Positions 20,048 through 62,241 of a DNA stretch of 64,000 nt are shown in pieces (within the stretch, counting starts at the first letter, position 1; every line of letters begins with the position of its first letter). The notes beneath the pieces were generated by a model. It worked only from the letters and a program-made list of their open reading frames with translations. It was not told the origin of the DNA and did no database searches. The stretch is from the NCBI GenBank assembly GCA_038870415.1, contig JAWCPE010000001.1, forward strand, positions 6,806-70,805. The letters are read 5' to 3'. The DNA is from Candidatus Bathyarchaeia archaeon. Its GTDB lineage: Archaea; Thermoproteota; CALKCG01; B24; JAWCPE01. Both the position numbers and the translations under genes were made by a program.

Positions 20048-21100
20048 ATGGTGACCTTCAAAGCTGAGGAACTCAGGTCGTTGACACGTGCAGTTTTCGA
20101 GGCGGCGGGAGCAAGCCGTGACGAGGCTGGCAAGGTCGCAGAGCTTCTCGTCCGGTCTAACCTGGCGGGTCACGACTCTCACGGCGTCATCCGGATACCC
20201 TGGTATGTTACGCTCATCAAGGAGGGGAAGCTGAAGCCCGGAGCGAAGGTTGAGGTTATCCGCGAGACCAGCTCAACCGCCCTGGTTGACGGGAATTGGG
20301 GGTTCGGACAGGTCGTAGCTTGGCGAAGCATGGAGATCGCGGTCGAGAAGGCCCGGATAAGCGGCGTAGGGACTGTAGGCGTCTATAACTGTAACCATGT
20401 CGGCAGGCTTGTCGACTACACGGCTTTCGCCGCGTCTCAGGACATGGTAGGCATCATGATGTGTAACGACGGCGCTATCGTCGCGCCGTTCGGCGGCATA
20501 GACCGCCTCTTCAACCCCGGGCCGATAAGTGTCGCCTTCCCCGCGGGCAGCCAGCCACCGATCCTCTTGGACATCTCGACCGCCGTCGCGGCTGAGGGTA
20601 AGATACGAGTCAAGGCGCGGCGTGGAGAGAAGATCCCGTTCGGATGGATCATCGACAAGGAGGGGAGGCCGACCGACAACCCTGCAGACCTCTACGCGGG
20701 CGGCGCGATCCTTCCTCTCGGAGGAGACGTAGGGTACAAGGGTTTCGGCCTAGGGCTGTTCGTTGACATCATGAGCGGGGCGCTCACAGGCTCAGGCTGC
20801 GCGTCAAGCCCGGAGTACAAGGGCGGGAACGGAGTCTTCATGATGGCGGTGAACATCGCCAACTTCACGAGCGTAAAGGACTACAAGAGGCGAGTTGACG
20901 AGCTCATACTGAGGGTAAAGGCGTCGAGAAAAGCACCTGGCGTTAAGGAGATTCTGCTCCCAGGAGAACCTGAGCTACGTGAAGAGCAAAGACGGCTACG
21001 TGAAGGAATCTACATAGAGGAGGAGACCTGGAAAGAGATCGCTTCCACCGCCAAGGGTCTAGGCTTAGACCTACCCCTATCAGCGACCCGGGATGACTGA
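20048..21100 (+). CDS. Ldh2-family malate/L-lactate/L-sulfolactate dehydrogenase
   Basis: 350 aa. NLAGHDSHGVIRIPWYV and GWIIDKEGRPTDNPADLYAGGAILPLGG are Ldh_2 family signatures. Confidence 0.8.
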   Translation: MVTFKAEELRSLTRAVFEAAGASRDEAGKVAELLVRSNLAGHDSHGVIRIPWYVTLIKEGKLKPGAKVEVIRETSSTALVDGNWGFGQVVAWRSMEIAVEKARISGVGTVGVYNCNHVGRLVDYTAFAASQDMVGIMMCNDGAIVAPFGGIDRLFNPGPISVAFPAGSQPPILLDISTAVAAEGKIRVKARRGEKIPFGWIIDKEGRPTDNPADLYAGGAILPLGGDVGYKGFGLGLFVDIMSGALTGSGCASSPEYKGGNGVFMMAVNIANFTSVKDYKRRVDELILRVKASRKAPGVKEILLPGEPELREEQRRLREGIYIEEETWKEIASTAKGLGLDLPLSATRDD

Positions 21101-21119
21101 AGGCTATCAGGGGCAGCCC

Positions 21120-22007
21120 TTACCTCTTAGGTAGAAGCTTAGCGATCTCCTCTCTTGCCTCGGCTGTCAGCGGTTGGAGAGGCTTCCTCGGGTAGCCACC
21201 CGGCAGCCCTAGAAGGTTAAGCGCCTCCTTCACGGCTACAACCCCGTACTTCGCGGTCAGAAGCCTGTTAGCTTCCAGGATGGAAAGCTGTAGGTCTCTA
21301 GCCGTGGCTATATCTCCTTTCTCCCAGCTGTCGTAGATCTGGACGCACTCGTGTGGGAAAGCGTTCGCGACAGCGACGACCGCCCCCTTCCCACCGAGCA
21401 TCAGCGTAGGGAAGATGACGTTTCCCGTCCCAGCCATCACGGAGAAGTCCTCTCTCCAACGCGTTAGGCGGATGGTCTCCGCTATCTGGTTGATCTCGCC
21501 GCTGCTATCCTTAACGCCTATCACTTGTTCATCCTTAGCCAGCTCAGCGACGATGCTCGGCTCGAGGTTGAAACCCGTGAACTTCGGCACGTTATACAGC
21601 ATCACCGGCAGATCGACGGCTCTCACGACCTCGGTGTAGTGGTCTAACAGCTCGTTGCGGCCTGGCTTGAAATAGTACGGCGTTACGACGAGGAGCGCAT
21701 CCACCCCTACTTCCTGAGCGTCCTTGGAGAAGTCCACGGTCTCAGCCGTGGAGATGCTTCCTGTGCCCGCGATCACCTTGACGCGTCCCTTGACGGCCTC
21801 GACCACCTGCTGGATAACAGCCTTTCTTTCCATTCTGGTCAGGTAGGGGGCTTCACCGTTACTTCCGCAGGGCACGAGGCCGTGTACTCCTGCCTCAATC
21901 CAGAAACGTATAAGCGTCCTCAGTCCCTGCTCGTCAATCTCGCCTTTAGACGTGAAGGGTGTCACGTGAGGGACGTATATCCCCCGGGGGATGAAACCTG
22001 AGGCCAT
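21120..22007 (-). CDS. DapA-family aldolase (dihydrodipicolinate synthase / KDG aldolase family)
   Basis: 295 aa. GIYVPHVTPFTSKGEIDEQGLRTLIRFWIEAGVHGLVPCGSNGEAPYLT is the DapA/NAL N-terminal signature. The Schiff-base Lys context is VIGVKDSSG. Confidence 0.8.
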   Translation of the reverse strand: MASGFIPRGIYVPHVTPFTSKGEIDEQGLRTLIRFWIEAGVHGLVPCGSNGEAPYLTRMERKAVIQQVVEAVKGRVKVIAGTGSISTAETVDFSKDAQEVGVDALLVVTPYYFKPGRNELLDHYTEVVRAVDLPVMLYNVPKFTGFNLEPSIVAELAKDEQVIGVKDSSGEINQIAETIRLTRWREDFSVMAGTGNVIFPTLMLGGKGAVVAVANAFPHECVQIYDSWEKGDIATARDLQLSILEANRLLTAKYGVVAVKEALNLLGLPGGYPRKPLQPLTAEAREEIAKLLPKR

Positions 22008-22034
22008 GGGCTAGCTGCCTCTTCCCTCAGTCTC

Positions 22035-22574
22035 CTAGCGGATCGCGGATCTAAGCTCTCTAATCCGGTTCTCGACGAGTTCGACCAGCTTCTTTCTGGC
22101 CTCTTCAGCTTGAAGTTGTAGGGGCTTCATCCTGCCTACGCTCTCTGCAAGGGCTTTGTCCCCTATGAAACTGAGCCATTGTTCGAAGTCGCCTCGTTCA
22201 AGGTGGAAACTCACCGAGTCCAAGTCGACCTTCTGCAAGGCGTCGCGGAACTGAGCCAGACTGTTAGCCATAACCCCTGCAGGGCGCCCCACTGCCGAGT
22301 AGAAGCGGAAGCCCAGCTCAGAAGGCACCTCAGCCAGAAGCTTCGCGGCTTCCTCGGAGGCTCGCTCGATCCGAGCGGCGACCTCTCTGCCAGCTGCGGT
22401 CAGAACGAAGAGGCCTCGGGATTCCCTTGCGACATACCCCTGCCTCAGCAGGGCCAGTAGATAAGGTGTTACAGTTCTAGACGCCAAACCTAGCTTCTCA
22501 GCGACTTCTTTAGGCCTGACAGCTCTTCCAGCCCTAGTTAGGAAGACGAGAACCCTCTCTTTCTGCTCTGACAT
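22035..22574 (-). CDS. wHTH transcriptional regulator with C-terminal domain of unknown function, upstream of dapA-like gene
   Basis: 179 aa. The N-terminal EVAEKLGLASRTVTPYLLALLRQGYVARESRG is a winged helix. There are 27 nt between its stop and the dapA-like start on the same strand. Confidence 0.5.
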   Translation of the reverse strand: MSEQKERVLVFLTRAGRAVRPKEVAEKLGLASRTVTPYLLALLRQGYVARESRGLFVLTAAGREVAARIERASEEAAKLLAEVPSELGFRFYSAVGRPAGVMANSLAQFRDALQKVDLDSVSFHLERGDFEQWLSFIGDKALAESVGRMKPLQLQAEEARKKLVELVENRIRELRSAIR

Positions 22575-22710
22575 GCTCTTCCAGCGTTGTAAGGCCTAGC
22601 TTAAAGAAAGCCTTTACGCCTTCGCCAACTCTGCGCAGCCATCTCGCCCGACCCCGTTGGCTGAGACCCCGGGGGTGTCAAGGCTTTTCTAGCGCTCTTG
22701 AACCTCAGGG

Positions 22711-23067
22711 GTGAGAGGGGCAGGTTTGCCCAGATTGAGGGAGGATGAGGCTGACAGCGGCACGTCTACAAGCGAGGACCAGGTCTTGGTGAGGTTATGT
22801 TCCGATAAGGTCGCCTACGAGGCGAGGCCAGCGAAGCCGCAGAGATATGACCTCGGAAAGGTTCAAGCCATTCTAGCCAAAGGGGCTCCTTACGCGACGG
22901 TCGTCTTCACCCCCTACCTCATCGTGTTGAGGAGGGGTAACGTCGAGATCACGATGGCTCAAGACGGCCGACTTATCATCAGGAGAGCGGAGAGCCAGGC
23001 CGCCGCGCGAGCGGTCGCAGAGGAGCTCCTCAGCCTACTACCGAGCGCTTTGGTCAGCCAGCCGTGA
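22711..23067 (+). CDS. Hypothetical small protein
   Basis: 118 aa. YATVVFTPYLIVLRRGNVEITMAQDGRLIIRRAES has no confidently recognisable family. Divergent from the ThiI-like gene. Confidence 0.3.
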   Translation: MRGAGLPRLREDEADSGTSTSEDQVLVRLCSDKVAYEARPAKPQRYDLGKVQAILAKGAPYATVVFTPYLIVLRRGNVEITMAQDGRLIIRRAESQAAARAVAEELLSLLPSALVSQP

Positions 23068-23111
23068 GAGGCACGCTTGACAGGTTCAGGTAGCGCGTGG
23101 GTAAGCCTCGT

Positions 23112-23804
23112 CTAGGACGCGTTAAGCTCGATGATCTCGCTTTCAAGAAGGTCCTTTGCCACCATCTCCTCGATGCGGAGAGACCTCTCCGCCTCTTCGA
23201 CCCGTTGCCTACTGGGATGAGTGGCTGGGTACCTCGGTGGACCGCTGCAGCAGAGCCCTGGGCTTGTAGAGATCGCGTAAGTCCCTATCTTCCTCGCGAG
23301 GTGTTCCACCTCGACCTTGTCCATAGCGATGAGAGGCCTCAACACTGGGAGAGACCTCACGGCGTCACTTATCACTTGGAGGCTTCCGGAGGTTTGGCTT
23401 GCATGCTCGCCTAGTATCTCGCCTGTCGCAATTGAGCTGGCGTCCTCTTTAGCCGCGATGGCTTCGGCGACGCGGTACATCATCCGTCTGCAGAGGATGC
23501 AGGTCAGCTTCCTCGAGCATCTTCGAAGTATCTCAGCCAGGTCGTTTCCATGCGGCGTGACGTACAGCCGCGCCTTACCGCCAGGGAGATGCCTGCAGAG
23601 TATCCTTGCGACGTTCAAAGCTCTGGCCCTCGTCGTCTCGTCTGTGAACGGGTAGTTGTCGAAGTAGACGAAGACGGGTATGTATCCGCGCCTTATGAGC
23701 AGCCACGCTGCAACGGGCGAATCGATCCCGCCTGAGAGTAAACAGACAGTCTTGGCGGCTTGGACCGGCTGCGCATACTTAGGTATCGCTTGTGGACTTT
23801 CCAA
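23112..23804 (-). CDS. ThiI-like PP-loop ATPase (tRNA sulfurtransferase family, lacking THUMP domain)
   Basis: 230 aa. The PP-loop VCLLSGGIDSPVAAWLL is present. CILCRR (CxxC) and CCSGPP cysteine motifs resemble methanogen-type ThiI sulfur-transfer cysteines. Confidence 0.7.
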   Translation of the reverse strand: MESPQAIPKYAQPVQAAKTVCLLSGGIDSPVAAWLLIRRGYIPVFVYFDNYPFTDETTRARALNVARILCRHLPGGKARLYVTPHGNDLAEILRRCSRKLTCILCRRMMYRVAEAIAAKEDASSIATGEILGEHASQTSGSLQVISDAVRSLPVLRPLIAMDKVEVEHLARKIGTYAISTSPGLCCSGPPRYPATHPSRQRVEEAERSLRIEEMVAKDLLESEIIELNAS

Positions 23805-23959
23805 TCTAGTCAGCTAGAACGCCGTGTTGCTCTCATATATAGGCGACTGGCTGCTCGAAGCATCATCCTTGCTGAGCACGACGCGACGCCACCGAAGGTG
23901 AGAAGAGTGTCTTGAGCCCCGAGTTGATTCGGGAACGCCTTAGAACTCGGCTCGGTAAG

Positions 23960-24361
23960 CTACCCCGGGGGTCTCTTTTGGACGTAGAGGTACTCTCCCT
24001 TCTTGCCCTCCCTCGATAGGATTCCGTCTCTGACGAGTTCTGCGAGGGTGTGGGCTACGGCGCTTCTGTCGTAGTGGTAGCCACGGCGGGACATCTCATC
24101 ATGTGACTCTGAGAGGCTTCTTCCCTCTTCGAAGAAACGCTCCTGCCAGAGCGTCAGGAGGACGCTTCTACACGTGTTAAGACGGGTGAGAGGTTCCACC
24201 GCCGGTGTTGCTGTAGGCTGACCCCCAACCTGGGAGGTCTTCTCCTGTACCGCGTCGATAAAGTCCTCTACTGCCTTCTTGAGCTGAGCTTCCTCACATT
24301 GGATCTCGGCCTCGACGTTTCCGATCTTGAGCTTGATCCGTATCGTCCCAGCGGTGGACAC
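23960..24361 (-). CDS. Hypothetical protein with C-terminal winged helix
   Basis: 133 aa. The C-terminus SAVAHTLAELVRDGILSREGKKGEYLYVQKR is wHTH-like. Divergent from nurA. Confidence 0.4.
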   Translation of the reverse strand: MSTAGTIRIKLKIGNVEAEIQCEEAQLKKAVEDFIDAVQEKTSQVGGQPTATPAVEPLTRLNTCRSVLLTLWQERFFEEGRSLSESHDEMSRRGYHYDRSAVAHTLAELVRDGILSREGKKGEYLYVQKRPPG

Positions 24362-24475
24362 GTGCGGTCACTGTTGATTGTTCATGTTGAGTGCACAACA
24401 ACACTTAAATACCGAGCACCACCCCCTAGTTGTTGTTTGCACAATTTAAGCGTTGAGCAACAAGGAGGGTCCCCT

Positions 24476-25663
24476 CTGGCCCGCGTACTACCGCTCTTCC
24501 CGTCAACACCTTTCCCAGCCACAGAGCCTCAGCTCATAGGCCAGACTCCCGGGCTATTAAGCGACAGCCCGGCGCCAAGCCCATACTCGAAGCTTTACAA
24601 TGACCTGATCGACTCTGGCACGAAAGCCCTGCTGAACGGCTTGGCAAGCTACGCGCGGGAGAGGCGTGAGGCCGTCTCGAAGCTACGCGGCCGGATCACG
24701 GTGAGGAGGGCGGCGCTCACCAGTGATGGTCCCGCCAAGGGCAAGGTCGTGGGCGTCGATGCCGGTCGGAACGGTACCTCGTACAAGTTCGCCTATGTGC
24801 CCATCTACGGCGCAGTGGCGGTGCTCGTGGAGAACTACGTCGTCCGCGAAGAGCCCCTCTGCATCTCCGGCGCACCTGACATCTGGCCTGTCGAAGCGGA
24901 CCCTGAGAGGCGTGAGAGCCTCCTCCACATGGCGCTCGAATACCGGATAGCGAGACAGGCTGTCGAGCTTTGGAGACCAGACTTCGTACTCCTCGACGGC
25001 GGCATCATACTTAACCCAAGGCTTCAGCCGAGGCTGCAAGACTCCGGAGGCTACGAAGGCGACTTCTTCTCCGCCTGCACGAACGCCCTCGACCTATTGG
25101 CCGCCTGCAAGGACCGAGGCGTGACTTTGGCCGGCTTCATCAAGAGGACAAAGATGAACCATTACGGTAGAATGCTGGAAGTGCCTAATCTCCGAGATGC
25201 TGTTCTTCTGAACCCCCTCTTGGAGAGGGGCGCGTATACTGACCCGTTCCAGATGTCGAACAAGGTAACGGCCGCCTACAGACGGCTAGCTGAGGACCTA
25301 GGCTACAGCCCAGAGATGGTCGAGGTTCAGTCATGCTACCTGAAGACCGCATTAGCTCCTTTCAGGGTGGAGGTGCCCCGCTTCTGCCTACCGAAAGTCG
25401 AGGAGCTTATGTCTGTGCTCTGCGCGGCAGCTGACTCAGAGGGGATCCCCTACGCGATTCATGAGGCGGATCGGCTGGCGAGGATAACGAGGCCCACCTC
25501 GAATATCCATAGCCTCGTCCTCTTCTCAAGGGCGCTCGACCTCGTTAGAACCGGGGAGATCACCTCTGAGGACCTAGACATCCTCAGTCTAGAGCATGGA
25601 CAGGAGTGGGCGCTTGAGCAGGAAGCCCTCGGAGAACGCCTGATGGAGGCTGACACTCCCTGA
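24476..25663 (+). CDS. nurA: NurA 5'-3' nuclease (start uncertain)
   Basis: The NurA domain has GKVVGVDAGRNGTSYKFAYVPIYGAVAVL (catalytic D), FVLLDGGII and TLAGFIKR. The ORF-track ATG at 24299 would overlap the divergent upstream gene. An in-frame CTG at 24476 lies 8 nt after a GGAGG. No ATG/GTG/TTG lies between the upstream intergenic region and the conserved domain. Confidence 0.75.
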   Translation: MARVLPLFPSTPFPATEPQLIGQTPGLLSDSPAPSPYSKLYNDLIDSGTKALLNGLASYARERREAVSKLRGRITVRRAALTSDGPAKGKVVGVDAGRNGTSYKFAYVPIYGAVAVLVENYVVREEPLCISGAPDIWPVEADPERRESLLHMALEYRIARQAVELWRPDFVLLDGGIILNPRLQPRLQDSGGYEGDFFSACTNALDLLAACKDRGVTLAGFIKRTKMNHYGRMLEVPNLRDAVLLNPLLERGAYTDPFQMSNKVTAAYRRLAEDLGYSPEMVEVQSCYLKTALAPFRVEVPRFCLPKVEELMSVLCAAADSEGIPYAIHEADRLARITRPTSNIHSLVLFSRALDLVRTGEITSEDLDILSLEHGQEWALEQEALGERLMEADTP

Positions 25664-25677
25664 ACGAGATAGGCTAC

Positions 25678-27234
25678 GTGATGTCAGGTTGCAGCCAGTC
25701 AATAGCGCCCTTCGTGGTGAAGGAGGGCCGAAAAGCCTTCATCAACCAGTACTACTTTCTCCCTCACCCTATCAGGTCCACAAGAGACGGGAAGGGAGGC
25801 TACACAGCGGTCGTACCTGTCTTAGCCAGGGTCTTCCGCGTAACGCCGTACAACCCTGAGATGAACGTGGGGGGCTTCGGCCCCATCGCTGGCAAGAGAG
25901 GCGAGAGGGCCCAGTACGGGAAAACGCTAGAGTACGAGATCGCATGGGCCGAGATCCTCGGATACGTAGCTGAGACAGGGAAATGGTATCGGCTTGAGTG
26001 CAGCCCTGGTACGTGGGACCCGGTCTTCGAACCGTCGGAGATGGAGATACGTAACTTCTTCTCACTCCTCTCAGGCAGCGGGGCGTCAGCCGACTCGCCG
26101 CCCTACTTGCTGAAGGTGGGACATCACCGAGGCCTCAAGATACCGGTCTACTTAGACCTAAACGCGTTAGCCAGGGGGCATATGTTCGTCTCAGGCATGA
26201 CCAGGTCCGGCAAGAGCAGCTTCGTCCTGAACCTTATCGCCCGAGCGTTAGAGCTGACGCCTAAGCCTCACTTCGTGGTGCTCGACCGGAGGTCTGAATA
26301 CTCCGTCCTCGTTAAATACGGCGCTACGGTCATCCCGTACAAGTCGTTCCTGCCGAGAACAGGTCGGTTCAGTGGCGAAGCGCTCTCGTCTAGGCTTGGT
26401 TTCAACCCGAGCACGGGCCCTGGGAAGCTCGTAGCCGAGGCGGTCGATGTCCTCGCAAGCGAAGGCGAAGAGATCACCGGGGCTTCGCTCGTAGCGAAGG
26501 CGCGCGAGATCGCGCCGCTCGTCCTTGCACGTGACCGTGAGGGCGTCCTCGCCCGAGTCCAGTGGGCTGTCAGAACGAGGGGCGGCTTCCTCGACGAGGC
26601 GAAGGAACGAGTAGACCTAGTCGAAGCTGTCCGCGCGAATGAGGTGCTCATCATCGACTTCTCCGTGGACACCGATATAGACGAGCAGCATGCGACGACG
26701 AGGAACATCGTATCCACCCTCGTGGACGAGGCGATGCGGAGACGAGCTGACGGCGACTTCGCCGTCATCGTCGTGATCGAGGAGGCGCAGTATCTCGCGC
26801 CGGAGAAGGGCCTCAAGATCGAGGTCGGCAACCCCGAGAGGATCGGGGTCGACCGGGAACTCGTCGAGGCGATAAGCCAGGCAGGAGGCTACAATATGGG
26901 CTTCATCATCCTCACTCAGCGGCCTGCCTACGTGAGCAAGTCCATCATCTCGCAATGCAACTCTATCGTGTGCTTCAGATTGATGTCGGGCAACGACCAA
27001 GAGGCGATCATCAGGTACTCAGAGTACGGCAACGAGAGGCTGAGCGACTACCTGCCAGGTCTAGCCGACCACGAAGCGATGCTCTGGGGAATGGCTTCAC
27101 CGGTCCCCTTCCCGATAATCGCCGAGATGGAGACCCGAGAGTTCCCGAGGAAGGCAGGAGTCACAGCCAGACATGCTTGGCAAACCATGGTCGAAGCCAA
27201 GCGAAGAACTCTGGCAGTTCAGACGGCCCGTTGA
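25678..27234 (+). CDS. herA: HerA-family hexameric ATPase/helicase
   Basis: 518 aa. Walker A FVSGMTRSGKSSFVLNLIARA, Walker B VIVVIEEAQYLAP and sensor IILTQRPAYVSKSII match the HerA/DUF87 layout. An N-terminal barrel region is present. The gene lies 15 nt downstream of nurA. Confidence 0.85.
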   Translation: MMSGCSQSIAPFVVKEGRKAFINQYYFLPHPIRSTRDGKGGYTAVVPVLARVFRVTPYNPEMNVGGFGPIAGKRGERAQYGKTLEYEIAWAEILGYVAETGKWYRLECSPGTWDPVFEPSEMEIRNFFSLLSGSGASADSPPYLLKVGHHRGLKIPVYLDLNALARGHMFVSGMTRSGKSSFVLNLIARALELTPKPHFVVLDRRSEYSVLVKYGATVIPYKSFLPRTGRFSGEALSSRLGFNPSTGPGKLVAEAVDVLASEGEEITGASLVAKAREIAPLVLARDREGVLARVQWAVRTRGGFLDEAKERVDLVEAVRANEVLIIDFSVDTDIDEQHATTRNIVSTLVDEAMRRRADGDFAVIVVIEEAQYLAPEKGLKIEVGNPERIGVDRELVEAISQAGGYNMGFIILTQRPAYVSKSIISQCNSIVCFRLMSGNDQEAIIRYSEYGNERLSDYLPGLADHEAMLWGMASPVPFPIIAEMETREFPRKAGVTARHAWQTMVEAKRRTLAVQTAR

Positions 27235-29401: not shown

Positions 29402-30781
29402 TTATCTCAGTCCGGCTAGTATATCCTCTACATACTTGCGGGTCTCGTCGTTCAGTCTCTTGGCGCTCTCCTGGGTTCGAGCTTCAGACATAATCCTGAG
29501 AACAGGTTCAGTCCCTGACGGTCGGACGAGTACCCACTCTCCTCGTTTCAGAAGTTTGAACCCGTCGGTTAAATCGATCGTCTCGCCGCGGTGTCTCTCG
29601 GCTAGTGCCGTCACTACTTGTTGGGCTTCTTCTCTCGAGCAGGGAAGCTTCGTCCGCACGGAGAAGTATCTTGGCATTCGGCCTGTGATGGCCGATAGGG
29701 TCTCGCCCCTCGTGGCTAGTACCTCAAGGACCTTCGCCGCGGCGAGGATTCCATCCCGGGTGTACGACAGCCTCGGCAGGATGACGCCTCCGCAGGACCC
29801 TTCTCCGCCGATAGGGGCTCCGACCTCGATCATCTTCTGGACGACGAAGCTCTCGCCTACGCGGCTCCGGTACACCCTTGAACCGTGTCTCTCAGCGATC
29901 TCCTCGAAGAGGCTTGAAGAGGCGACGTTCGTGACGAAGGCCGAGCCGGGGTTCGCTTCGAGGTAAGAGTCAACCACCACTGCGAGTGTGAAGTCCTCAG
30001 GGAGAACCTCGCCTTTTTCATCAACGCAGACAAGCCGGTCAGCATCACAGTCATGGGCGAAGCCTACATCTGCCCCTTCTGCCTTCACGACCTCTACGAG
30101 GCCTGCCAGGGCCTCCTCAGTCGGCTCGATCGGCCTAGGGAAGGCCCCGTCGGGAACCGCGTTGATCGCCGTAAGCTTGCAGCCTAACTGCTGGAGCACG
30201 TAAGGGGTGACGAAGCTTCCAGCGCCGTTCCCCGGGTCGACCGCTACCTTCAGACCTGCCCTCGTCAAGGCTTGAGCATCAACACACTCGGTAACCGACT
30301 TCTCGTAGCGCCCGGAGAGCCGACCGGGCAGAACCCGGCCTACCCTCTCGGAGGCGACGGGTTTGACGGCTTCACTCCTCCAGTCTTCCCTTACTCTGAA
30401 CAGTTCCCTCTCGCTTAAGGGCAGCCCGTTGGGACCTACGAGCTTCAGACCGTTCCAGTCAGGCGGGTTATGGGATGCTGTGACGATTATGCCGCCCGCC
30501 GCTCCAAGATGTTTGACTGCGAAGACAGCTTTAGGCGACGGAACTACTCCGAGGTCTAGGACGTCGCATCCGACCGAGGTGAGGCCGGCGGAGACTGCGG
30601 CGACGACCATCTCACCTGTAGCCCTAGTATCCCTCCCGACCGCGACTCGGCCCTTCCCAAGCCAAGCTCCGAAGGAGGCTGATATCTCCAAGGCTGTTCT
30701 GGCTGTGAACGTCCTGCCGACGACACCGCGTACACCTGAGATGGTGAAGATAGGCTCTGAGCGAACGCTCCCCTCACTCAA
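29402..30781 (-). CDS. Phosphoglucosamine mutase / phosphomannomutase family (archaeal PGM/PMM)
   Basis: 459 aa. The active-site phosphoserine motif GIIVTASHNPPDWNGLK is present. The metal-binding site FAHDCDADRL and the phosphate-binding segment GGEGSCGG are also present. Confidence 0.88.
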   Translation of the reverse strand: MSEGSVRSEPIFTISGVRGVVGRTFTARTALEISASFGAWLGKGRVAVGRDTRATGEMVVAAVSAGLTSVGCDVLDLGVVPSPKAVFAVKHLGAAGGIIVTASHNPPDWNGLKLVGPNGLPLSERELFRVREDWRSEAVKPVASERVGRVLPGRLSGRYEKSVTECVDAQALTRAGLKVAVDPGNGAGSFVTPYVLQQLGCKLTAINAVPDGAFPRPIEPTEEALAGLVEVVKAEGADVGFAHDCDADRLVCVDEKGEVLPEDFTLAVVVDSYLEANPGSAFVTNVASSSLFEEIAERHGSRVYRSRVGESFVVQKMIEVGAPIGGEGSCGGVILPRLSYTRDGILAAAKVLEVLATRGETLSAITGRMPRYFSVRTKLPCSREEAQQVVTALAERHRGETIDLTDGFKLLKRGEWVLVRPSGTEPVLRIMSEARTQESAKRLNDETRKYVEDILAGLR

Positions 30782-39290: not shown

Positions 39291-39389
39291 CCGGCTCAAC
39301 GGTAGGCTCTTCCCTGCAGCCTCGAATGTCCGGTACCCGTCGATTCCCTGGGTCGGCTCCCGACCGAGAAAAGAGTGGGAGTGTAAGCT

Positions 39390-41294
39390 CTGAGGCTCCT
39401 CTTCATCCACGCTGACAGTTTCGGGTACAAGGTCTTAGACAAGGCAATCGAGAGACCGGAGGCTCTCGAAGGCGCTGAGAGGGAAGCCTCCTTCCACGAC
39501 GTGCTCGTCGTGTTTACTACCGTCGAGCAGGCCGACGAGGATTCTCCCGCCGAGGTCGTGACGCAGGCCGCAGAGAGCGTCCTAGACGTTGCTGTGAGAG
39601 TCGGCGCGCATAGGTTGGTGCTCTACCCGTACGCGCACCTGTCCTCTCAGCTGGCTTCGCCCAGCCATTCCCTCTCCATCCTCAAGGCGATGGAAGAGCG
39701 TCTCAAGGAGAGCGGCGTCGATGTCCATCGCAGCCCGTTCGGATGGTATAAAGCCTTCACGATCGCGTGTAAGGGCCATCCGCTCTCTGAGCTCTCCAGA
39801 ACCATCGTGGGAGCGCCGGGCACGTCGGGGGAGCCTACAGCGAAGAGGGAGAGGGTGTCGAAGGCGCTCCAGGCGGAGGAGAAGCTTCAGTCAAGCTGGT
39901 TTATCCTAGACCCTGAAGGTCGTCTCACGCCGGTGTCTGAGTTCGACTTCCAGGGGAGCCCAAACCTAGAGAAGCTCGCGCGGTATGAGATGGCGAAGGT
40001 CAGGGCTGTAGCCCAAGTCCCGCCCCATGTGACTTTGATGAAGAGGCTTGAGATAGCCGCCTATGAGCCGGGCAGCGACCCGGGGAATATGCGTTGGTAC
40101 CCTAAGGGAGCCCTGATGAAGAGGCTCCTCGAGCAGTTCGTCGCCCGCAAGGTGGCGGAGTACGGCGCGATGGAGGTCGAGACACCGGTGATGTATGATG
40201 CCCACCACCCTTCGCTCGCGAGCTACCTTGACAGGTTCCCGGCTAGGCAGTACATGGTGGAGTCGGAGGACAGAGAGCTCTTCCTGCGTTTCAGCGCCTG
40301 CTTCGGTCAGTTCCTCCTAGCCAGCGATGCTCAGATCTCGTACCGGCAGCTTCCGCTGAAGCTGTACGAGTTGACACGCTACAGTTTCCGGCGGGAGAAG
40401 AGCGGGGAACTCGTAGGCCTGAGAAGGCTTAGAGCCTTCACGATGCCTGACTGCCACGCGCTCTGCGCAGACCTTGACCAAGCCCGCGTTGAGCTGGTGG
40501 CTAGGTTCCAGCTCTCGATGAGCGTGCTCAGCGAGGGGCTAGGCCTCAAGCAGGGGGATTACGAGCTTGCTGTCAGGTTCACGAAGGACTTCTACGAGGA
40601 GAACAGGGGACTCGTCCACTCGCTGGTTAGGCTCTTCGGAAGACCCGCGCTCGTGGAGATGTGGCCTGAACGTTTCTTCTACTTCACCCTCAAGTGGGAG
40701 TTCAACTTCGTCGACGCCCTAGAGAAGGCTTCAGCCCTCTCGACAGACCAGGTCGACGTGGAGAACGCGGAGCGGTACGGGATCGTCTACGTAGACGAGA
40801 AGGGAGAAAAACGGTTCCCGCTCATCCTCCACTGCTCGCCCAGCGGGGCAATAGAACGTGACATCTACGCGCTCTTAGAGAGAGCCTACCTAGCGCAGCA
40901 GAGGGGTGAGACACCCACCCTCCCATTGTGGCTTCAGCCCACCCAGATCAGGCTGATACCTGTCTCTGAGAAGGCTCTTCCGGACGTAGAGAAGGTCGCA
41001 GAGGAGATAGAGGGCCTCCAGGTTCCCGTTAGGGTCGACATCGACGATAGACCTGTAACCGTGGATAGGAAGGTGCGGGATGCGGAGTTAGAGTGGATCG
41101 AGTACATCCTCGTCGTCGGCCCACGAGAGGTGAAGTCAGGCATCTTCACGGTCAGGAAGCGTTCAACGAGGGAGATGCTGCGCCTCCCCCTGAAGGAGCT
41201 TGCCGACGCGATCAAGGCTGAGACGGAGGGAAAGCCGTTCCTGCCCCAAACGCTCTCAAAATACCTCTCGAAGAGGCCGCAGTTCCCCGGCTAG
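39390..41294 (+). CDS. thrS: Threonyl-tRNA synthetase (archaeal type, with N-terminal DTD-like editing domain)
   Basis: Class II motif 2 is FRREKSGELVGLRRLRAFTMPDCHA. An anticodon-binding domain lies at the C-term. The editing-domain homology (LRLLFIHADSFGYKVLDKAIERPE, cf. archaeal MRVLLIHSDYIEYEV) begins at CTG 39390, two codons after an in-frame TAA. The ORF-track ATG at 39501 would remove about 37 conserved residues. Confidence 0.88.
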   Translation: MRLLFIHADSFGYKVLDKAIERPEALEGAEREASFHDVLVVFTTVEQADEDSPAEVVTQAAESVLDVAVRVGAHRLVLYPYAHLSSQLASPSHSLSILKAMEERLKESGVDVHRSPFGWYKAFTIACKGHPLSELSRTIVGAPGTSGEPTAKRERVSKALQAEEKLQSSWFILDPEGRLTPVSEFDFQGSPNLEKLARYEMAKVRAVAQVPPHVTLMKRLEIAAYEPGSDPGNMRWYPKGALMKRLLEQFVARKVAEYGAMEVETPVMYDAHHPSLASYLDRFPARQYMVESEDRELFLRFSACFGQFLLASDAQISYRQLPLKLYELTRYSFRREKSGELVGLRRLRAFTMPDCHALCADLDQARVELVARFQLSMSVLSEGLGLKQGDYELAVRFTKDFYEENRGLVHSLVRLFGRPALVEMWPERFFYFTLKWEFNFVDALEKASALSTDQVDVENAERYGIVYVDEKGEKRFPLILHCSPSGAIERDIYALLERAYLAQQRGETPTLPLWLQPTQIRLIPVSEKALPDVEKVAEEIEGLQVPVRVDIDDRPVTVDRKVRDAELEWIEYILVVGPREVKSGIFTVRKRSTREMLRLPLKELADAIKAETEGKPFLPQTLSKYLSKRPQFPG

Positions 41295-43834: not shown

Positions 43835-45655
43835 TTACGGTTCTCCGCCCCCTAACTCTTTGCAAACGTTGGAGACTGCCCTCAACACGTGAGGGGCGGA
43901 TATAACAGCGAAGACCCGCATGAACCTCGGGGAGGCGATCTCCTTGACGACATGGCGGTCTCCGGAGGCCAGGTATCCGCCCAGCACGGCCTCCGCGAAG
44001 CCTTTTGCAAGTCGGGCGTTGAGCGTCAGATGGCTGGTGTAGTATAGGAGTTCGGCGAGGTCCCAGGTGGGCTGCAGCCCTCTCCCCGCTTGTTCAAGGT
44101 CTAGGAAGAAGACTTGGCCTCGTCCATCCGTAAGGATGTTCTCAGGTTTCGGGTCGCCTAGTATGATACCTGTGGCATGGATGCCTGCCAACGTCTTTCC
44201 TATCGCGGAGAACAATGGCAGAGCCTGCTCTAGGGCGTCGCTCGAAGAGAACGCCTTGACTGCCAGCTGTTCGAGGTCTTCGCCTTCCACGTACTCTCTG
44301 TAGAGGACCTTGTCCGCCCAGCTGATGTCGAGCACATCTGGCGCCGCGAAGCCGTGTCTCCGCAGATGGAGTAGCGCGGCGTACTCGTTAGCCATCCTGC
44401 TCCGGCCTCTGAGCGCGAACCTCTGAACCCCGACCGTCCACAAGGCCAGAGGGAACCACTTGAAGCCATGCCAATCCCTGTACTTCTTCGCGACGACACG
44501 CTTCTCTTCACCGTCCCCGGTCAACCTGATGAGGAAGACCGAGTTCACCGCCGATCCAAGTCTCTCAACAGTTCTCGCCTTTGCAGCTTCAGGAGAGCCG
44601 AGCCTCTCTGAGAGCCGTTCAATCGGCATCCGTTCCGAGAGGCTGACCAGGCCTCGCTCTGAGGGCAGGAAGAGATACCTCTCCGGTTCCTCTAAGGCTT
44701 TCTCACGGTTACTGCCCTCCAGCTCCCTCGTCAGCTTAGAAGCGAATTCTTGGGCGACCTCGAGGAGGTTGACGCCTCTACCTGCGTAGCCGTGTACCAC
44801 GTACGCGCTGGCGGCCCTCTTCACGCTCTTGGCGATCTCGGCTACCCTTGCTCGATTCGCGCCGTGCTGTACCCCTGCCTTCTCTGTTAGCTTGTAGTAC
44901 TCACCGTCATACGTGAGGATACCTTCAGCGATTAGGGCTGAGAGCGCTCTTTCGAACCCTAAGCTGATCTTCTTAAGGTTCATCTCTCTACGGTTTCCTT
45001 CCAGCATCCTTACGTAACTGTACCGAACCGGTGGATAGATGCGGGCCCTCCGCCACATCTTGTCGAGGATGAAGAAGACGGGCGAGATGAGTATCTCCGT
45101 CCAGATGCCTGGGTAGTCGGAGATTAGGCCCTGGATGCTCTCCTTAGCCGCCATCTCCGCCTCGTTCAGGTACTCCTCGGAGACCATGGGCTGGTATGGG
45201 GTGAGGAGACGGCCTGCCACAAACTCGCCGAGGTAAGCGTCCTTCACATCTCTCTCGAAGAGTTCTTTGTCGACGGCGAGAACAGAGAACATACCTTTCT
45301 CATACGGCTCGTAATGGTATCGTACATCGTCCCGGTACGGTTCAAGGACCAGAAGCACGTCCACGTCGCTATCTTTCCTAGCGTAGCCCGACACCTGGGA
45401 GCCGTAGAAGCAGGCGGCTACGACCTTCGACCCGTTCCTCTCCGCGAGCCGCTTGCACATCTCCACCGCTGCCAGCCTTGTAGCCTCATCTATCAAGGCG
45501 AGAGACAACCTTCCTCCCCTGTTCTGCTCTCCCATCCTTTCTTTCATCTTCATCGGAGCCTCTCTCATAAACGGATCGACGGCTTGCTGTCGCCGTGCGA
45601 AAACCCGAGGGTTCCAGCAGTGTCGACGAGCTGCCGGCCACTCAGTCCGCTTCAC
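43835..45655 (-). CDS. Fusion protein: minimal nucleotidyltransferase (Pol-beta-like) + winged helix + RIO/Kdo-type protein kinase-like domain
   Basis: 606 aa. The NTase motif is AACFYGSQVSGYARKDSDVDVLLV. The middle region LSALIAEGILTYDGEYYKLTEKA is wHTH-like. The C-terminal kinase-like region has VFLIRLTGDGEEKRVVAKKY (a Lys in a VAKK-type beta-3), catalytic-loop-like HATGIILGDPKPENILTDGRG and FFLDLEQAG. Exact start among the N-terminal Mets is uncertain. Confidence 0.6.
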   Translation of the reverse strand: MKRTEWPAARRHCWNPRVFARRQQAVDPFMREAPMKMKERMGEQNRGGRLSLALIDEATRLAAVEMCKRLAERNGSKVVAACFYGSQVSGYARKDSDVDVLLVLEPYRDDVRYHYEPYEKGMFSVLAVDKELFERDVKDAYLGEFVAGRLLTPYQPMVSEEYLNEAEMAAKESIQGLISDYPGIWTEILISPVFFILDKMWRRARIYPPVRYSYVRMLEGNRREMNLKKISLGFERALSALIAEGILTYDGEYYKLTEKAGVQHGANRARVAEIAKSVKRAASAYVVHGYAGRGVNLLEVAQEFASKLTRELEGSNREKALEEPERYLFLPSERGLVSLSERMPIERLSERLGSPEAAKARTVERLGSAVNSVFLIRLTGDGEEKRVVAKKYRDWHGFKWFPLALWTVGVQRFALRGRSRMANEYAALLHLRRHGFAAPDVLDISWADKVLYREYVEGEDLEQLAVKAFSSSDALEQALPLFSAIGKTLAGIHATGIILGDPKPENILTDGRGQVFFLDLEQAGRGLQPTWDLAELLYYTSHLTLNARLAKGFAEAVLGGYLASGDRHVVKEIASPRFMRVFAVISAPHVLRAVSNVCKELGGGEP

Positions 45656-61388: not shown

Positions 61389-61901
61389 TTAACCGGGGGT
61401 CTCGTTGGTAACTGGGCATCTTGAGCGTAGCAGCTCTGCTACTACCTGTGCGAACATCCTTGAGGTCCAGCCGGGGGTCGTGGCAGGCGGCCTCCCGGCG
61501 ACGATGTTGCCGTTGACCTCGACGGGAGGCCCGTAGGCGAAGTTGCCCGCGAAGAGGCCTGCGTTCGCGAGACAATGCCTCCCGCGGCCGATAGCCGCGA
61601 CGACCCTGCCCTTTTCTTGGGCTTTCTTCAAGAGAGAGATGAGCTTAGGGTCGTGCTGCAGGTGTTGGAGCGCGCCAACTCCGCCCGCGACGATGAGCGC
61701 ATCGTAGTCCTCTGCACGGGCTTCGGCGAGGGGTATCTCCGCCTGAGCAGCCGTGCCGGAGGAGCCTCGGCAAGGGCCTCTGGACACGCTGCAGGTTACC
61801 ACCTCGATGCCTTCGCGTTCAAGCACCTCCTTAGGCTGGATGAACTCGTGGTCGGTGAACCCCGTCGGCGCGAGTATGAGCAGCGCTCTCCTACCTGGCA
61901 G
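61389..61901 (-). CDS. DJ-1/PfpI-family protein
   Basis: The conserved N-terminus RRALLILAPTGFTDHEFIQPKEVLEREGIEVV (cf. PfpI MKVLFLTANEFEDVEL...) extends upstream of the ORF-track GTG at 61826. Within that extension the only candidate initiator is CTG (61899-61901), with GAGG upstream, unless the AGG at 61890-61892 is a mutated ATG. The nucleophile-elbow region AAIGRGRHCLANAG is present. Confidence 0.65.
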   Translation of the reverse strand: MPGRRALLILAPTGFTDHEFIQPKEVLEREGIEVVTCSVSRGPCRGSSGTAAQAEIPLAEARAEDYDALIVAGGVGALQHLQHDPKLISLLKKAQEKGRVVAAIGRGRHCLANAGLFAGNFAYGPPVEVNGNIVAGRPPATTPGWTSRMFAQVVAELLRSRCPVTNETPG

Positions 61902-62241
61902 GCGGACCGCCTCAACAGGATGTCCTTACCTAAGCGTTAAAGCCTTCGGCTGTTTCCTGACCGCACGTTCGAGGCTGAGGCCTACGTTGAATCGGCACCG
62001 GCATGCCGGTGCCGATTCAACGGGCAGATGGGGTAACCATAGTCTTTTGGCAGGTTTATGTCAATTCTAGTGGCTGGATGCCAGCTAGACTCGCCGATGC
62101 TCGGAGACTCGCCCTTCCGATAGCCGGTTGGCGTTAGAGAAAAGGCGCCGGCGTGAAGTCAATTTTTATGGAGTTCTCTGTCACAAACCCTTATATGAGA
62201 TGTTCACGGTATTCATGTTTCCCCGCGTTTCTGCGGCTGGG

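What the first reader, a model, noticed from the sequence alone, without database searches (positions are those of the whole stretch)
39384..39392. Conserved N-termini of three genes begin at CTG/non-canonical codons (thrS, nurA, pfpI-like)
ThrRS editing-domain homology (LRLLFIHADSF..., cf. MRVLLIHSDY in other archaea) starts at CTG 39390, exactly two codons after an in-frame TAA and 8 nt after a GGGAGTG SD-like run. The next ATG is 37 codons downstream, inside the conserved domain. The PfpI-like gene's conserved RRALLILAPTGF N-terminus (61890-61901, minus) has no ATG/GTG/TTG; an in-frame CTG with an upstream GAGG is the only option unless AGG is a mutated ATG. The NurA domain is preceded by a GGAGG-N8-CTG (24476) with no canonical start before the intergenic region. 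Either CTG is used as an initiator in this organism (rare in archaea), or the assembly carries first-base errors at start codons.
Basis: seen in the sequence. Interest (0 to 1): 0.55.

Follow-up and report, generated by a model that had tools for sequence, protein, structure and literature searches.

The report
CTG start codons in a Bathyarchaeia genome
Three genes in this archaeal window, including the essential threonyl-tRNA synthetase, have CTG exactly where their relatives have ATG or TTG; the CTGs are real in the DNA and are most likely rare working start codons, a known but uncommon phenomenon that recurs across this archaeal class.

Summary
CTG sits at 39390 (thrS), 61901 (minus strand, PfpI-like) and 24476 (NurA), exactly where orthologues have their start codon.

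Assembly error is excluded:
- A second MAG of the same species (GCA_038852745.1, 99.84-99.9% identical, with SNPs and a 15-nt indel) has the same CTGs at thrS and PfpI.
- Logan contigs from SRR27730043 confirm the PfpI and NurA sites.
- NCBI PGAP already annotates thrS (634 aa) and PfpI (170 aa) from these CTGs.

Evidence that the CTGs are start codons:
- The Pfam archaeal ThrRS editing-domain model and the PDB chains 2hl1/1y2q begin at the CTG codon.
- The segments between each CTG and the next canonical start are under purifying selection (dN/dS 0.08-0.28).
- All three CTGs have GGAG/GAGG 7-8 nt upstream.

Across 155 other Bathyarchaeia thrS loci the same column reads ATG 99, TTG 44, GTG 4, CTG 7, ATA 1. 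One clade has kept CTG across species only 66-89% identical.

Best reading: SD-assisted CUG initiation, here derived from TTG/ATG in an unusually GC-rich clade. There is no direct translation evidence. For NurA, an upstream in-frame TTG (24437) remains an alternative. This is a rare variant of a known phenomenon and is moderately interesting.

The parts
39390..41294 (+). thrS (archaeal-type threonyl-tRNA synthetase with N-terminal editing domain), 634 aa, read from the CTG
   Evidence: A 100% identical PGAP protein, P0001, has 634 aa and starts at this codon. Pfam PF08915 model positions 1-137 align to residues 1-139, followed by tRNA-synt_2b and HGTP_anticodon.
39390..39392 (+). CTG, the inferred thrS initiation codon
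   Evidence: It aligns with ATG of the 81%-identical relative L001-L004. It aligns with the start codon of 155 other Bathyarchaeia thrS loci and with Met1 of PDB 2hl1/1y2q. GCA_038852745.1 also has CTG here.
39384..39386 (+). In-frame TAA two codons upstream of the CTG, which closes the frame
   Evidence: The relative has an in-frame TGA at the same place.
39377..39383 (+). SD-like GGGAGTG (GGAG core 8 nt before the CTG)
   Evidence: The relative has the weaker GAGAGTG at the same spacing.
61389..61901 (-). DJ-1/PfpI-family gene, 170 aa, read from the CTG
   Evidence: PGAP in GCA_038852745.1 aa from this CTG (L017 7655-8167). Pfam PF01965 model position 2 aligns at residue 5. PDB 1g2i residue 3 aligns at residue 7.
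61899..61901 (-). CTG, the inferred PfpI-like initiation codon
   Evidence: There is no ATG, GTG or TTG between TAA 61928 and GTG 61826. The codon aligns with CTG in L007 and TTG in L098, and with the Met of more distant homologues of the form MxxKK. Logan contig L006 is identical here.
61910..61913 (-). GAGG SD-like core 8 nt upstream of the CTG
61936..61942 (-). Conserved TATA-like CTTTAAC about 38 nt upstream of the CTG (inferred promoter)
   Evidence: The block CGAAGsTTTTwAC is conserved in the window, L007 and L098, within an otherwise diverged intergenic region. Its promoter role is inferred.
24476..25663 (+). NurA nuclease gene, 395 aa if read from the CTG. PGAP's 340-aa call from TTG 24651 cuts off conserved residues.
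   Evidence: Pfam PF09376 matches. The conserved block PYSKLYNDLIDxGT lies upstream of TTG 24651 in all homologues. P0138 has 340 aa.
24476..24478 (+). CTG, the inferred NurA initiation codon
   Evidence: L011, L012, L015 and L014 all have TTG at this position. Logan contig L016 is 100% identical to the window and has the CTG.
24464..24468 (+). GGAGG SD 7 nt upstream of the CTG, conserved in relatives
24437..24439 (+). Upstream in-frame TTG, an alternative canonical start for NurA (Prodigal's choice, 408 aa)
   Evidence: The conserved DNA block around it is read in three different frames in the window, L014 and L015. L015 has an in-frame TAA there, so the block is probably promoter DNA.

Best explanation
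These are genuine genomic CTG codons that serve as rare, near-cognate initiation codons. The 30S subunit would be positioned by a Shine-Dalgarno pairing (GGAG/GAGG/GGAGG 7-8 nt upstream). Initiator Met-tRNA (anticodon CAU) would then pair with CUG through a first-position mismatch, as it does with GUG and UUG, so the proteins would begin with Met. Initiation would probably be less efficient than at AUG.

In this lineage the CTGs arose by T-to-C or A-to-C change of TTG or ATG starts. The lineage is a hot-spring Bathyarchaeia clade with 58-62% GC, against a class median of about 44%. TTG already starts about one fifth of its genes. TTG-to-CTG is therefore the easiest slip for a start codon under GC pressure, and it appears to be tolerated.

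Shown here:
- the sequence is real in independent assemblies;
- the CTGs sit in the start column of orthologues;
- the coding segments downstream are constrained;
- CTG persists as the thrS start in other Bathyarchaeia.

Inferred:
- that translation starts there;
- that it starts with Met;
- that GC pressure was the driver.
For: 1. Not an artefact. The window and GCA_038852745.1 differ by SNPs and a 15-nt indel, including a synonymous SNP inside thrS, yet share the CTG at thrS and PfpI. Logan SRR27730043 contigs L016 and L006 match the window at NurA and PfpI.

2. Start-column homology.
- thrS: CTG in the window against ATG in the 81%-identical relative, with an in-frame stop two codons upstream in both.
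- NurA: CTG against TTG in four relative loci, with GGAGG conserved.
- PfpI: CTG in the window and L007, TTG in L098.

3. Domain integrity.
- PF08915 model positions 1-137 align to residues 1-139 counted from the CTG. Met1 of 2hl1/1y2q aligns to the CTG.
- PF01965 begins at residue 5. Starting at the next canonical codon would remove 37 residues from ThrRS and 25 from PfpI.
- The NurA N-terminal block is conserved in homologues down to 47% identity.

4. Purifying selection on the segments between each CTG and the next canonical start. dN/dS is 0.175 for thrS, 0.275 for PfpI and 0.083 for NurA, against 0.11-0.19 for the rest of each gene. The 8 codons upstream of the PfpI CTG give 0.72.

5. An SD core lies 5-10 nt upstream in 3 of 3 cases, against a 9.3% background.

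6. Class-wide pattern at the thrS start column: ATG 99, TTG 44, GTG 4, CTG 7, ATA 1 in 155 loci.
- Six CTG loci form a clade 66-89% identical to each other. All have GGAGG 8 nt upstream, and the stop of the upstream small gene overlaps the start as CTGA.
- L134 has an in-frame TAG two codons upstream of its CTG.
- Two nested members, 92-93% identical to the CTG-bearing L106, have TTG instead.
- L172 carries an independent CTG with a stop three codons upstream.

7. NCBI PGAP already calls thrS and PfpI from the CTGs.

8. GC content is 58.8% in the window and 58-62% in its relatives, against a median of 44% for other Bathyarchaeia. All five start-codon changes seen in this clade replace A or T with C.
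Against: - There is no direct evidence of translation: no N-terminal peptides, ribosome profiling or transcript ends.
- Reviews of archaeal initiation list only AUG, GUG and UUG as start codons (PMC7531240; PMC4705826). S. solfataricus aIF1 discriminates against AUU (PMC4705826).
- dN/dS is averaged over the whole divergence from the relative. It cannot show constraint after the ATG-to-CTG change in thrS.
- NurA has an in-frame canonical TTG 13 codons upstream (24437), close to where a transcript from the TTAAAT box at 24405-24410 would begin. It could act as a leaderless start.
- For PfpI the CTG is the best available codon rather than a proven one. A second CTG (61883) and an ATA (61877) follow in frame.
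- The enrichment statistics rest on small numbers and on ascertainment that differs between groups.
Confidence: 0.72

Rival explanations
1. Assembly or sequencing error: the true first bases are A or T (ATG/TTG) and the consensus is wrong.
For: Only the prior that MAGs contain errors. All three changes are single first-base differences from canonical codons.
Against: The same CTGs occur in a second MAG that differs from the window by SNPs and an indel. They also occur in separately assembled Logan contigs. CTG is found at the same thrS column in 7 unrelated metagenome contigs. Random errors would not hit three start codons and always produce CTG.
Confidence: 0.01
2. The start codons are lost. 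Translation begins at the next canonical codon (GTG 39501, GTG 61826, TTG 24651) and gives N-terminally truncated proteins, or the genes are decaying.
For: Canonical codons exist downstream. PGAP itself uses TTG 24651 for NurA. A ThrRS without a working editing domain can still aminoacylate: from my own knowledge, some Crenarchaeota have separate catalytic and editing ThrRS proteins. The PfpI-like gene is probably dispensable.
Against: Truncation would remove the first 37 residues of the editing-domain fold, model positions 2-22 of the DJ-1/PfpI domain, and a NurA block conserved in all homologues. The ORFs are intact, and dN/dS in the N-terminal segments is as low as in the rest of each gene. 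SD motifs sit in front of the CTGs. No SD was looked for in front of the downstream codons. CTG is kept for long periods at the thrS start in another clade.
Confidence: 0.1
3. For NurA only: the gene starts at the canonical in-frame TTG 24437, possibly on a leaderless or short-leader transcript, and the CTG is just an internal leucine codon.
For: TTG 24437 is in frame with no intervening stop. Prodigal calls it in the Logan contig, giving 408 aa. It lies about 27-30 nt downstream of the TTAAAT box at 24405-24410, which is the spacing expected for a transcript start (inference). L011 has the same in-frame arrangement.
Against: The conserved block GCACAATTTAAG is read in three different frames in the window, L014 and L015. 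L015 has an in-frame TAA there, and L014 has a 4-nt indel. All relatives have TTG with GGAGG 7 nt upstream at the CTG position. UUG is avoided on fully leaderless mRNAs in S. solfataricus (PMC7531240).
Confidence: 0.3
4. An unconventional route supplies the N-terminus: read-through of the upstream stop, a frameshift from an upstream ORF, or C-to-U editing of the mRNA that turns CUG into UUG.
For: GTG codons lie just upstream of the TAA in thrS (GTG GGA GTG TAA GCT CTG). No other evidence was found.
Against: No upstream ORF feeds into these starts in the window. No mRNA editing of this kind is known in archaea (my own knowledge). No Rfam scan was run on the window. SD spacing fits direct initiation at the CTG.
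Confidence: 0.02

Closest known systems
Alternative NUG start codons (GUG, UUG) in bacteria and archaea, read by initiator tRNA with a first-position mismatch. CTG is listed as a permitted start in NCBI translation table 11.
   Same: The same codon position is varied (NUG). SD-assisted placement is the same. ATG, TTG, GTG and CTG interchange in one alignment column across species. PGAP already annotates two of these CTGs as starts.
   Different: Reviews of archaeal initiation list only AUG, GUG and UUG. Here CUG is inferred at about 3 of roughly 60 genes in the window, including an essential aminoacyl-tRNA synthetase. That is far above the rate seen in other Bathyarchaeia loci.
Near-cognate (CUG) initiation in eukaryotes, where start selection is governed by eIF1 and eIF2, the homologues of archaeal aIF1 and aIF2.
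   Same: Archaea use aIF1, aIF1A and aIF2 (PMC4705826). CUG is the main near-cognate codon in eukaryotic profiling data.
   Different: In eukaryotes these starts depend on scanning and often produce N-terminal extensions or uORFs. Here the CTG is the only start of the main ORF and is preceded by an SD. No Leu-tRNA or eIF2A-type route is implied.
Near-cognate initiation sites seen by ribosome profiling in Haloferax volcanii (PMC7261190).
   Same: About 30% of putative alternative initiation sites in that study began at near-cognate codons. This suggests that archaeal ribosomes can start at such codons.
   Different: Those were unvalidated secondary sites that the authors set aside. Here the CTGs are the primary starts of conserved genes, supported by comparative genomics rather than by profiling.
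Weak start codons used to set expression level, such as the AUU start of E. coli infC (my own knowledge), and 4-nt ATGA stop/start overlaps used for translational coupling.
   Same: In a Bathyarchaeia clade the stop of a small upstream gene overlaps the thrS start as CTGA. The overlapping Gly codon is always GGC, although GGA, GGG or GGT would create ATGA, GTGA or TTGA.
   Different: No regulatory loop has been shown. In the window itself thrS is not overlapped by the upstream gene; a 99-nt spacer lies between them.

Membership tests
Non-canonical (CUG) translation initiation codon | The codon occupies the position homologous to the start codon of orthologues | tested here: met
   thrS: ATG in L001-L004, and the start column in 155 other loci. 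NurA: TTG in L011, L012, L014 and L015. PfpI: TTG in L098 and Met in distant homologues.
Non-canonical (CUG) translation initiation codon | No canonical ATG, GTG or TTG is available in frame between the upstream stop and the conserved N-terminus | tested here: inconclusive
   Met for thrS, where TAA lies 2 codons upstream, and for PfpI. Not met for NurA, where TTG 24437 is in frame. Comparative evidence argues that this TTG is non-coding.
Non-canonical (CUG) translation initiation codon | A ribosome-binding site at functional spacing | tested here: met
   GGAG, GGAGG and GAGG cores lie 8, 7 and 8 nt upstream. The background rate is 9.3%. The organism's 16S 3' end is not in the window, so actual pairing was not tested.
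Non-canonical (CUG) translation initiation codon | The sequence is real and not an assembly artefact | tested here: met
   A second MAG and Logan contigs carry the same bases.
Non-canonical (CUG) translation initiation codon | The protein N-terminus or initiating ribosomes map to the codon, and Met is incorporated | not testable with these tools
   The organism is uncultivated.
Archaeal-type ThrRS with N-terminal editing domain (PF08915 + PF00587 + PF03129) | All three domains are present and complete | tested here: met
   PF08915 model 1-137 of 137 (E = 4e-50), tRNA-synt_2b model 1-177 of 179, and HGTP_anticodon model 1-93 of 94. PDB 2hl1 residues 1-141 align to query residues 1-141.
DJ-1/PfpI family (PF01965) | Domain match | tested here: met
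   PF01965 scores 90.8 bits against a cut-off of 26.6. PDB 1g2i matches at E = 3e-13.
PfpI-type protease/deglycase | A nucleophile Cys-His in the AICHGP motif | tested here: not met
   The window protein and all of its close homologues have AIGRGRH where PH1704 has SICHGPQ. Cys100 is replaced by Gly and His101 by Arg. The gene belongs to the fold family but is probably not a PfpI-type enzyme.
NurA nuclease (PF09376) | Domain match, and pairing with a HerA-type ATPase gene | tested here: met
   PF09376 matches at E = 9e-19. A DUF87/HerA-like gene lies immediately downstream at 25678-27234 in the window and in relatives.

The most novel reading that the evidence does not exclude
Bathyarchaeia may treat all four NUG codons as usable initiators, so that CUG is an evolutionarily stable start codon rather than a transient defect.

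Supporting observations:
- CUG is kept as the thrS start across a clade of species only 66-89% identical. There it overlaps the stop of a small upstream gene as CTGA, even though synonymous changes in that gene would create ATGA, GTGA or TTGA.
- In the GC-rich hot-spring clade of this window, GC pressure may have pushed roughly 5% of genes onto C-containing near-cognate starts: CTG in the window, and ACG and TCG in its sister species.

This would imply unusually relaxed start-codon discrimination by the aIF1/aIF2/initiator-tRNA system in this lineage, or selection for weak starts to set expression levels.
Probability: 0.3. Interest if true: 0.6.

Novelty: new member of a known kind. Interest (0 to 1): 0.42.

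Why it matters
1. Annotation. Gene callers that allow only ATG, GTG and TTG truncate or extend these genes.
- Prodigal-type calls give a 132-aa PfpI fragment and a 408-aa NurA.
- PGAP gives a 340-aa NurA that lacks a conserved block.
- The same problem will affect other Bathyarchaeia genomes.

2. Biology. Accepted archaeal start codons are AUG, GUG and UUG. Archaeal start selection uses homologues of the eukaryotic factors, and in eukaryotes CUG is the main near-cognate codon. An essential synthetase that starts at CUG in several independent Bathyarchaeia lineages, and stably in one clade, is comparative evidence that CUG initiation works in archaea. It also provides concrete 5' regions for reporter tests.

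3. Evolution. The pattern suggests that GC pressure can erode TTG starts to CTG. If so, start-codon usage partly tracks base composition.

Tried and rejected
- Exact-product look-ups for the truncated 597-aa ThrRS and for PGAP's 340-aa NurA found no record.
Neither returned the window's own species or its 81%-identical relative; the best hit was 61% identical. They therefore could not date the ATG-to-CTG change in thrS. They were used instead as a class-wide sample of the start column.
- The tRNA scan found no tRNA in the window, so the initiator tRNA could not be examined.
- The sigma-70 promoter and terminator scan around thrS found nothing, and it is not suited to archaea.
- The automated start-column census flagged six non-canonical cases. 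On inspection L026 and L051 were alignment artefacts with a TTG a few columns away, and L059 was too divergent to judge. Only L035 (ATA), L019 (TTA) and the window's own thrS remained.
Relatives have AGG or AAG (Arg or Lys) there, and TTG or CTG three codons upstream.
- L007's upstream ATG was considered as the ancestral PfpI start and judged unlikely. It lies only about 17 nt from the conserved TATA-like box, and the 8 codons after it evolve almost neutrally with dN/dS of 0.72. Both points rest on few sites or on inference.
- Pfam checks of 10 further window genes with long open stretches upstream of their first canonical start found no further hidden non-canonical starts.
Full report
**What is in the sequence**

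thrS. The plus strand reads GGGAGTG TAA GCT CTG AGG CTC CTC TTC ATC CAC. The CTG is at 39390-39392, and an in-frame TAA lies two codons upstream. The next canonical in-frame start is GTG at 39501, 37 codons downstream.

PfpI-like gene. On the minus strand the frame runs from TAA (61928-61926) through GGA CAT CCT GTT GAG GCG GTC CGC CTG CCA GGT AGG AGA GCG CTG CTC ATA CTC to GTG 61826. It contains no ATG, GTG or TTG. The CTG is at 61901-61899, and GAGG lies 8 nt upstream.

NurA. GGAGG (24464-24468) is followed 7 nt later by CTG 24476.

**Source, and exclusion of assembly error**

The thrS product is 100% identical to NCBI protein P0001, a threonine--tRNA ligase from a Candidatus Bathyarchaeia archaeon. 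P0001 has 634 aa, so it is annotated from this CTG. Its contig, JAWCJY010000003.1 of GCA_038852745.1, is not the window. Over 38 kb the two differ by single-base substitutions and a 15-nt indel at 45149, giving 99.84-99.90% identity. One substitution lies inside thrS at 40805 and is synonymous.

- That second MAG has CTG at the thrS start and at the PfpI start. PGAP calls both genes from the CTG: 634 aa and 170 aa.
- Logan contigs assembled from SRR27730043 are 100% identical to window 20785-25707, including the NurA CTG.
- The Logan contig covering the PfpI region is identical to the window around the start.

First-base assembly errors are therefore excluded.

**thrS start**

The nearest relative is 81% identical at the protein level and comes from JGI hot-spring metagenomes, with four contigs from four samples. 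It has ATG exactly where the window has CTG, an in-frame TGA two codons upstream, and GAGAGTG where the window has GGGAGTG.

Pfam's archaeal ThrRS editing-domain model aligns over its full length (positions 1-137) to residues 1-139 counted from the CTG. Met1 of the crystallised Pyrococcus abyssi editing domain (2hl1, 1y2q) aligns with the CTG codon. Starting at GTG 39501 would delete the first 37 residues of that fold. Codons 2-37 have dN/dS of 0.175 against the relative, compared with 0.113 for the rest of the gene.

**PfpI-like start**

Close homologues have Leu at the CTG position. More distant homologues begin M-x-x-K-K exactly there.

- At the DNA level, L007 (70% identical) also has CTG at this position, plus an ATG 8 codons upstream.
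- L098 (70% identical) has TTG at this position.
- A TATA-like block, CGAAGsTTTTwAC, is conserved about 38 nt upstream in all three.
- The 8 codons upstream of the CTG evolve almost neutrally (dN/dS 0.72, few sites). Codons 2-25 give 0.275, and the rest of the gene 0.193.
- The Pfam DJ-1/PfpI model starts at residue 5, and PH1704 residue 3 aligns to residue 7.
- Starting at GTG 61826 would remove residues 1-25, which carry model positions 2-22.

**NurA start**

PGAP's product, P0138, has 340 aa and starts at TTG 24651. That call cuts off a block, PYSKLYNDLIDxGTxALL, which is conserved in every homologue down to 47% identity.

In four loci from three related species (64-78% identical), the codon aligned with CTG 24476 is TTG, and GGAGG is conserved 7 nt upstream. 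Further upstream, the strongly conserved DNA block GCACAATTTAAG is read in three different frames in the window, L014 and L015. L015 has an in-frame TAA there, and L014 a 4-nt insertion. The block therefore behaves as promoter DNA, not as coding sequence. Codons 2-58 have dN/dS of 0.083.

TTG 24437 cannot be fully excluded. It lies at about the distance from the TTAAAT box at 24405-24410 where a transcript would begin.

**More than chance**

- All three CTGs have a GGAG/GAGG core 5-10 nt upstream, against 9.3% of the 2375 CTG trinucleotides in the window. This gives p of about 8e-4.
- If start codons were simply lost by random single-base change, CTG would be one of seven non-canonical outcomes. 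Three out of three being CTG argues that CTG is the tolerated outcome. This is inference.

**How common is this in the window and its clade**

PGAP starts across window 29390-64000 are ATG 15, TTG 6, GTG 5 and CTG 2.

I compared 27 orthologue pairs between the window and its sister species. The window has the three CTGs. The sister species has two further non-canonical codons, both seen in two samples:
- ACG where the window has ATG 33393 (a GNAT gene);
- TCG where the window has TTG 30781 (a PGM/PMM gene, with the SD GAGGG conserved).

Pfam checks of 10 other window genes found no further cases.

For a background rate I ran a start-column census on 20 gene families from 80 other Bathyarchaeia loci. 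It gave 465 canonical starts and only two credible non-canonical ones, ATA and TTA. Fisher tests give p between 0.001 and 0.013 for enrichment in the window or its clade. The ascertainment differs between the two groups and the numbers are small.

This clade is the most GC-rich of the Bathyarchaeia sampled, at 58-62% against a median of 44%. All five start changes replace A or T with C. From this I infer GC pressure acting on a start-codon pool already rich in TTG.

**Class-wide view of the thrS start**

In 78 GTDB species the start column reads ATG 57, TTG 17, GTG 3 and ATA 1. In 77 metagenome contigs it reads ATG 42, TTG 27, GTG 1 and CTG 7.

L172 has CTG with an in-frame TGA three codons upstream, so it is an independent case.

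Six other CTG loci form a clade whose ThrRS proteins are 66-89% identical.
- All read [A/G]TGGAGGnnnnnnGG CTG AGA, with GGAGG 8 nt upstream of the CTG.
- The TGA stop of a small zinc-ribbon-like gene overlaps the CTG, giving CTGA. This small gene lies upstream of thrS in 140 loci.
- The overlapping Gly codon is always GGC, although GGA, GGG or GGT would create a canonical start.
- L134 has an in-frame TAG two codons before its CTG. That change is synonymous in the frame of the upstream gene.
- L115 and L122, which are 92-93% identical to the CTG-bearing L106, have TTG instead.

The simplest history is an ancestral CTG that was kept through speciation, with one change back to TTG. This is the strongest evidence, though still comparative, that CUG works as an initiator in this class.

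**Literature**

Reviews list only AUG, GUG and UUG as archaeal start codons (PMC7531240; PMC4705826). They report that S. solfataricus aIF1 discriminates against AUU. Ribosome profiling in Haloferax volcanii found that about 30% of putative alternative initiation sites start at near-cognate codons, but the authors set those aside (PMC7261190). I found nothing on start-codon usage in Bathyarchaeota.

**Verdict**

- The best explanation is SD-assisted initiation at CUG by initiator Met-tRNA. Here the CTGs derive from TTG or ATG starts in a GC-rich clade.
- My confidence is about 0.7 for thrS and PfpI, and lower for NurA.
- This is a rare instance of a known kind of feature. Two of the three sites are already annotated by PGAP. 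The added value is the evidence that CTG starts recur, and persist, in Bathyarchaeia.

Noticed in passing
window 29390-64000 compared with L005/L017 (GCA_038852745.1): The window is not the deposited contig JAWCJY010000003.1. It is a 99.84-99.90% identical strain. There are substitutions at 30259, 31748, 35232, 35263, 37107, 38453, 40805, 51126 and 51715, among others. The window also lacks a 15-nt stretch (GAAGCGGGTCTTCGC) at 45149, inside the NTP_transf_2/APH-like gene.
   Followed up: partly
window 24476-25663; P0138: NCBI's NurA annotation (340 aa, from TTG 24651) removes an N-terminal block that is conserved in all homologues. Prodigal-type calls give 408 aa from TTG 24437. The comparative evidence favours 395 aa from the CTG.
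   Followed up: yes
window 24399-24410 and 24444-24455; also 24424-24435 and 24458-24469: The NurA/divergent-gene intergenic region carries two TATA-like boxes that are inverted copies of each other (CAACACTTAAAT / ATTTAAGCGTTG, 92% complementary). The region is nearly invariant in relatives only 64-78% identical at the protein level. A second inverted repeat could pair the GGAGG SD with CCCTAG upstream. This could be a shared divergent promoter or operator, or an SD-sequestering hairpin.
   Followed up: partly
window 61389-61901 (minus strand): The PfpI-like protein and all of its close homologues have AIGRGRH where PfpI/PH1704 has the nucleophile motif ICHGP (Cys100 to Gly, His101 to Arg). 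They also share an invariant C-terminal RPPATTPGW motif. This looks like a DJ-1/PfpI-fold subfamily that is probably not a cysteine-dependent enzyme.
   Followed up: partly
L011/L012 (sister species): GNAT start aligned to window 33393; PGM/PMM start aligned to window 30781: The sister species has ACG where the window has the GNAT ATG. It has TCG where the window has the PGM/PMM TTG, with the SD conserved. In neither gene is there any canonical start before conserved N-terminal motifs. JGI gene calls truncate both genes.
   Followed up: partly
L134 2798-3004, and the homologous position in 140 of about 160 Bathyarchaeia thrS loci: A small (about 68 aa) Cys/His-rich, probably zinc-binding protein gene lies immediately upstream of thrS across Bathyarchaeia. 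Its stop usually falls 5-30 nt before the thrS start. In eight loci the stop overlaps the start as NTGA (six CTGA, two TTGA, no ATGA). The window's clade has lost this linkage, and an ABC-ATPase gene lies upstream instead.
   Followed up: partly
L035 6001-6003 (DAOVFC010000007.1): Another Bathyarchaeota MAG has ATA at the conserved thrS start column. GGAGG lies 8 nt upstream, an in-frame TAA lies 8 codons upstream, and the next canonical start is 42 codons downstream.
   Followed up: partly
window 29390-64000 (PGAP calls): TTG is used as the start codon for about 21% of genes (6 of 28) and GTG for 18%. Several TTG starts are conserved between the window and its sister species, for example at 8738, 31643 and 30781.
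   Followed up: partly
window 39351-39365: A short GC-rich hairpin (GGTCGG-CTC-CCGACC) lies in the 99-nt spacer between the ABC-ATPase gene and thrS, about 25 nt upstream of the CTG. It is not conserved in the sister species. No TATA-like box is visible in this spacer, so thrS may be co-transcribed with the ABC genes.
   Followed up: no
window 24383-24361 (minus strand): A conserved mini-ORF, ATG AAC AAT CAA CAG TGA (MNNQQ*), precedes and is in frame with the GTG start of the divergent 133-aa gene. The ATG and TGA are conserved in the window, L014 and L015.
   Followed up: no
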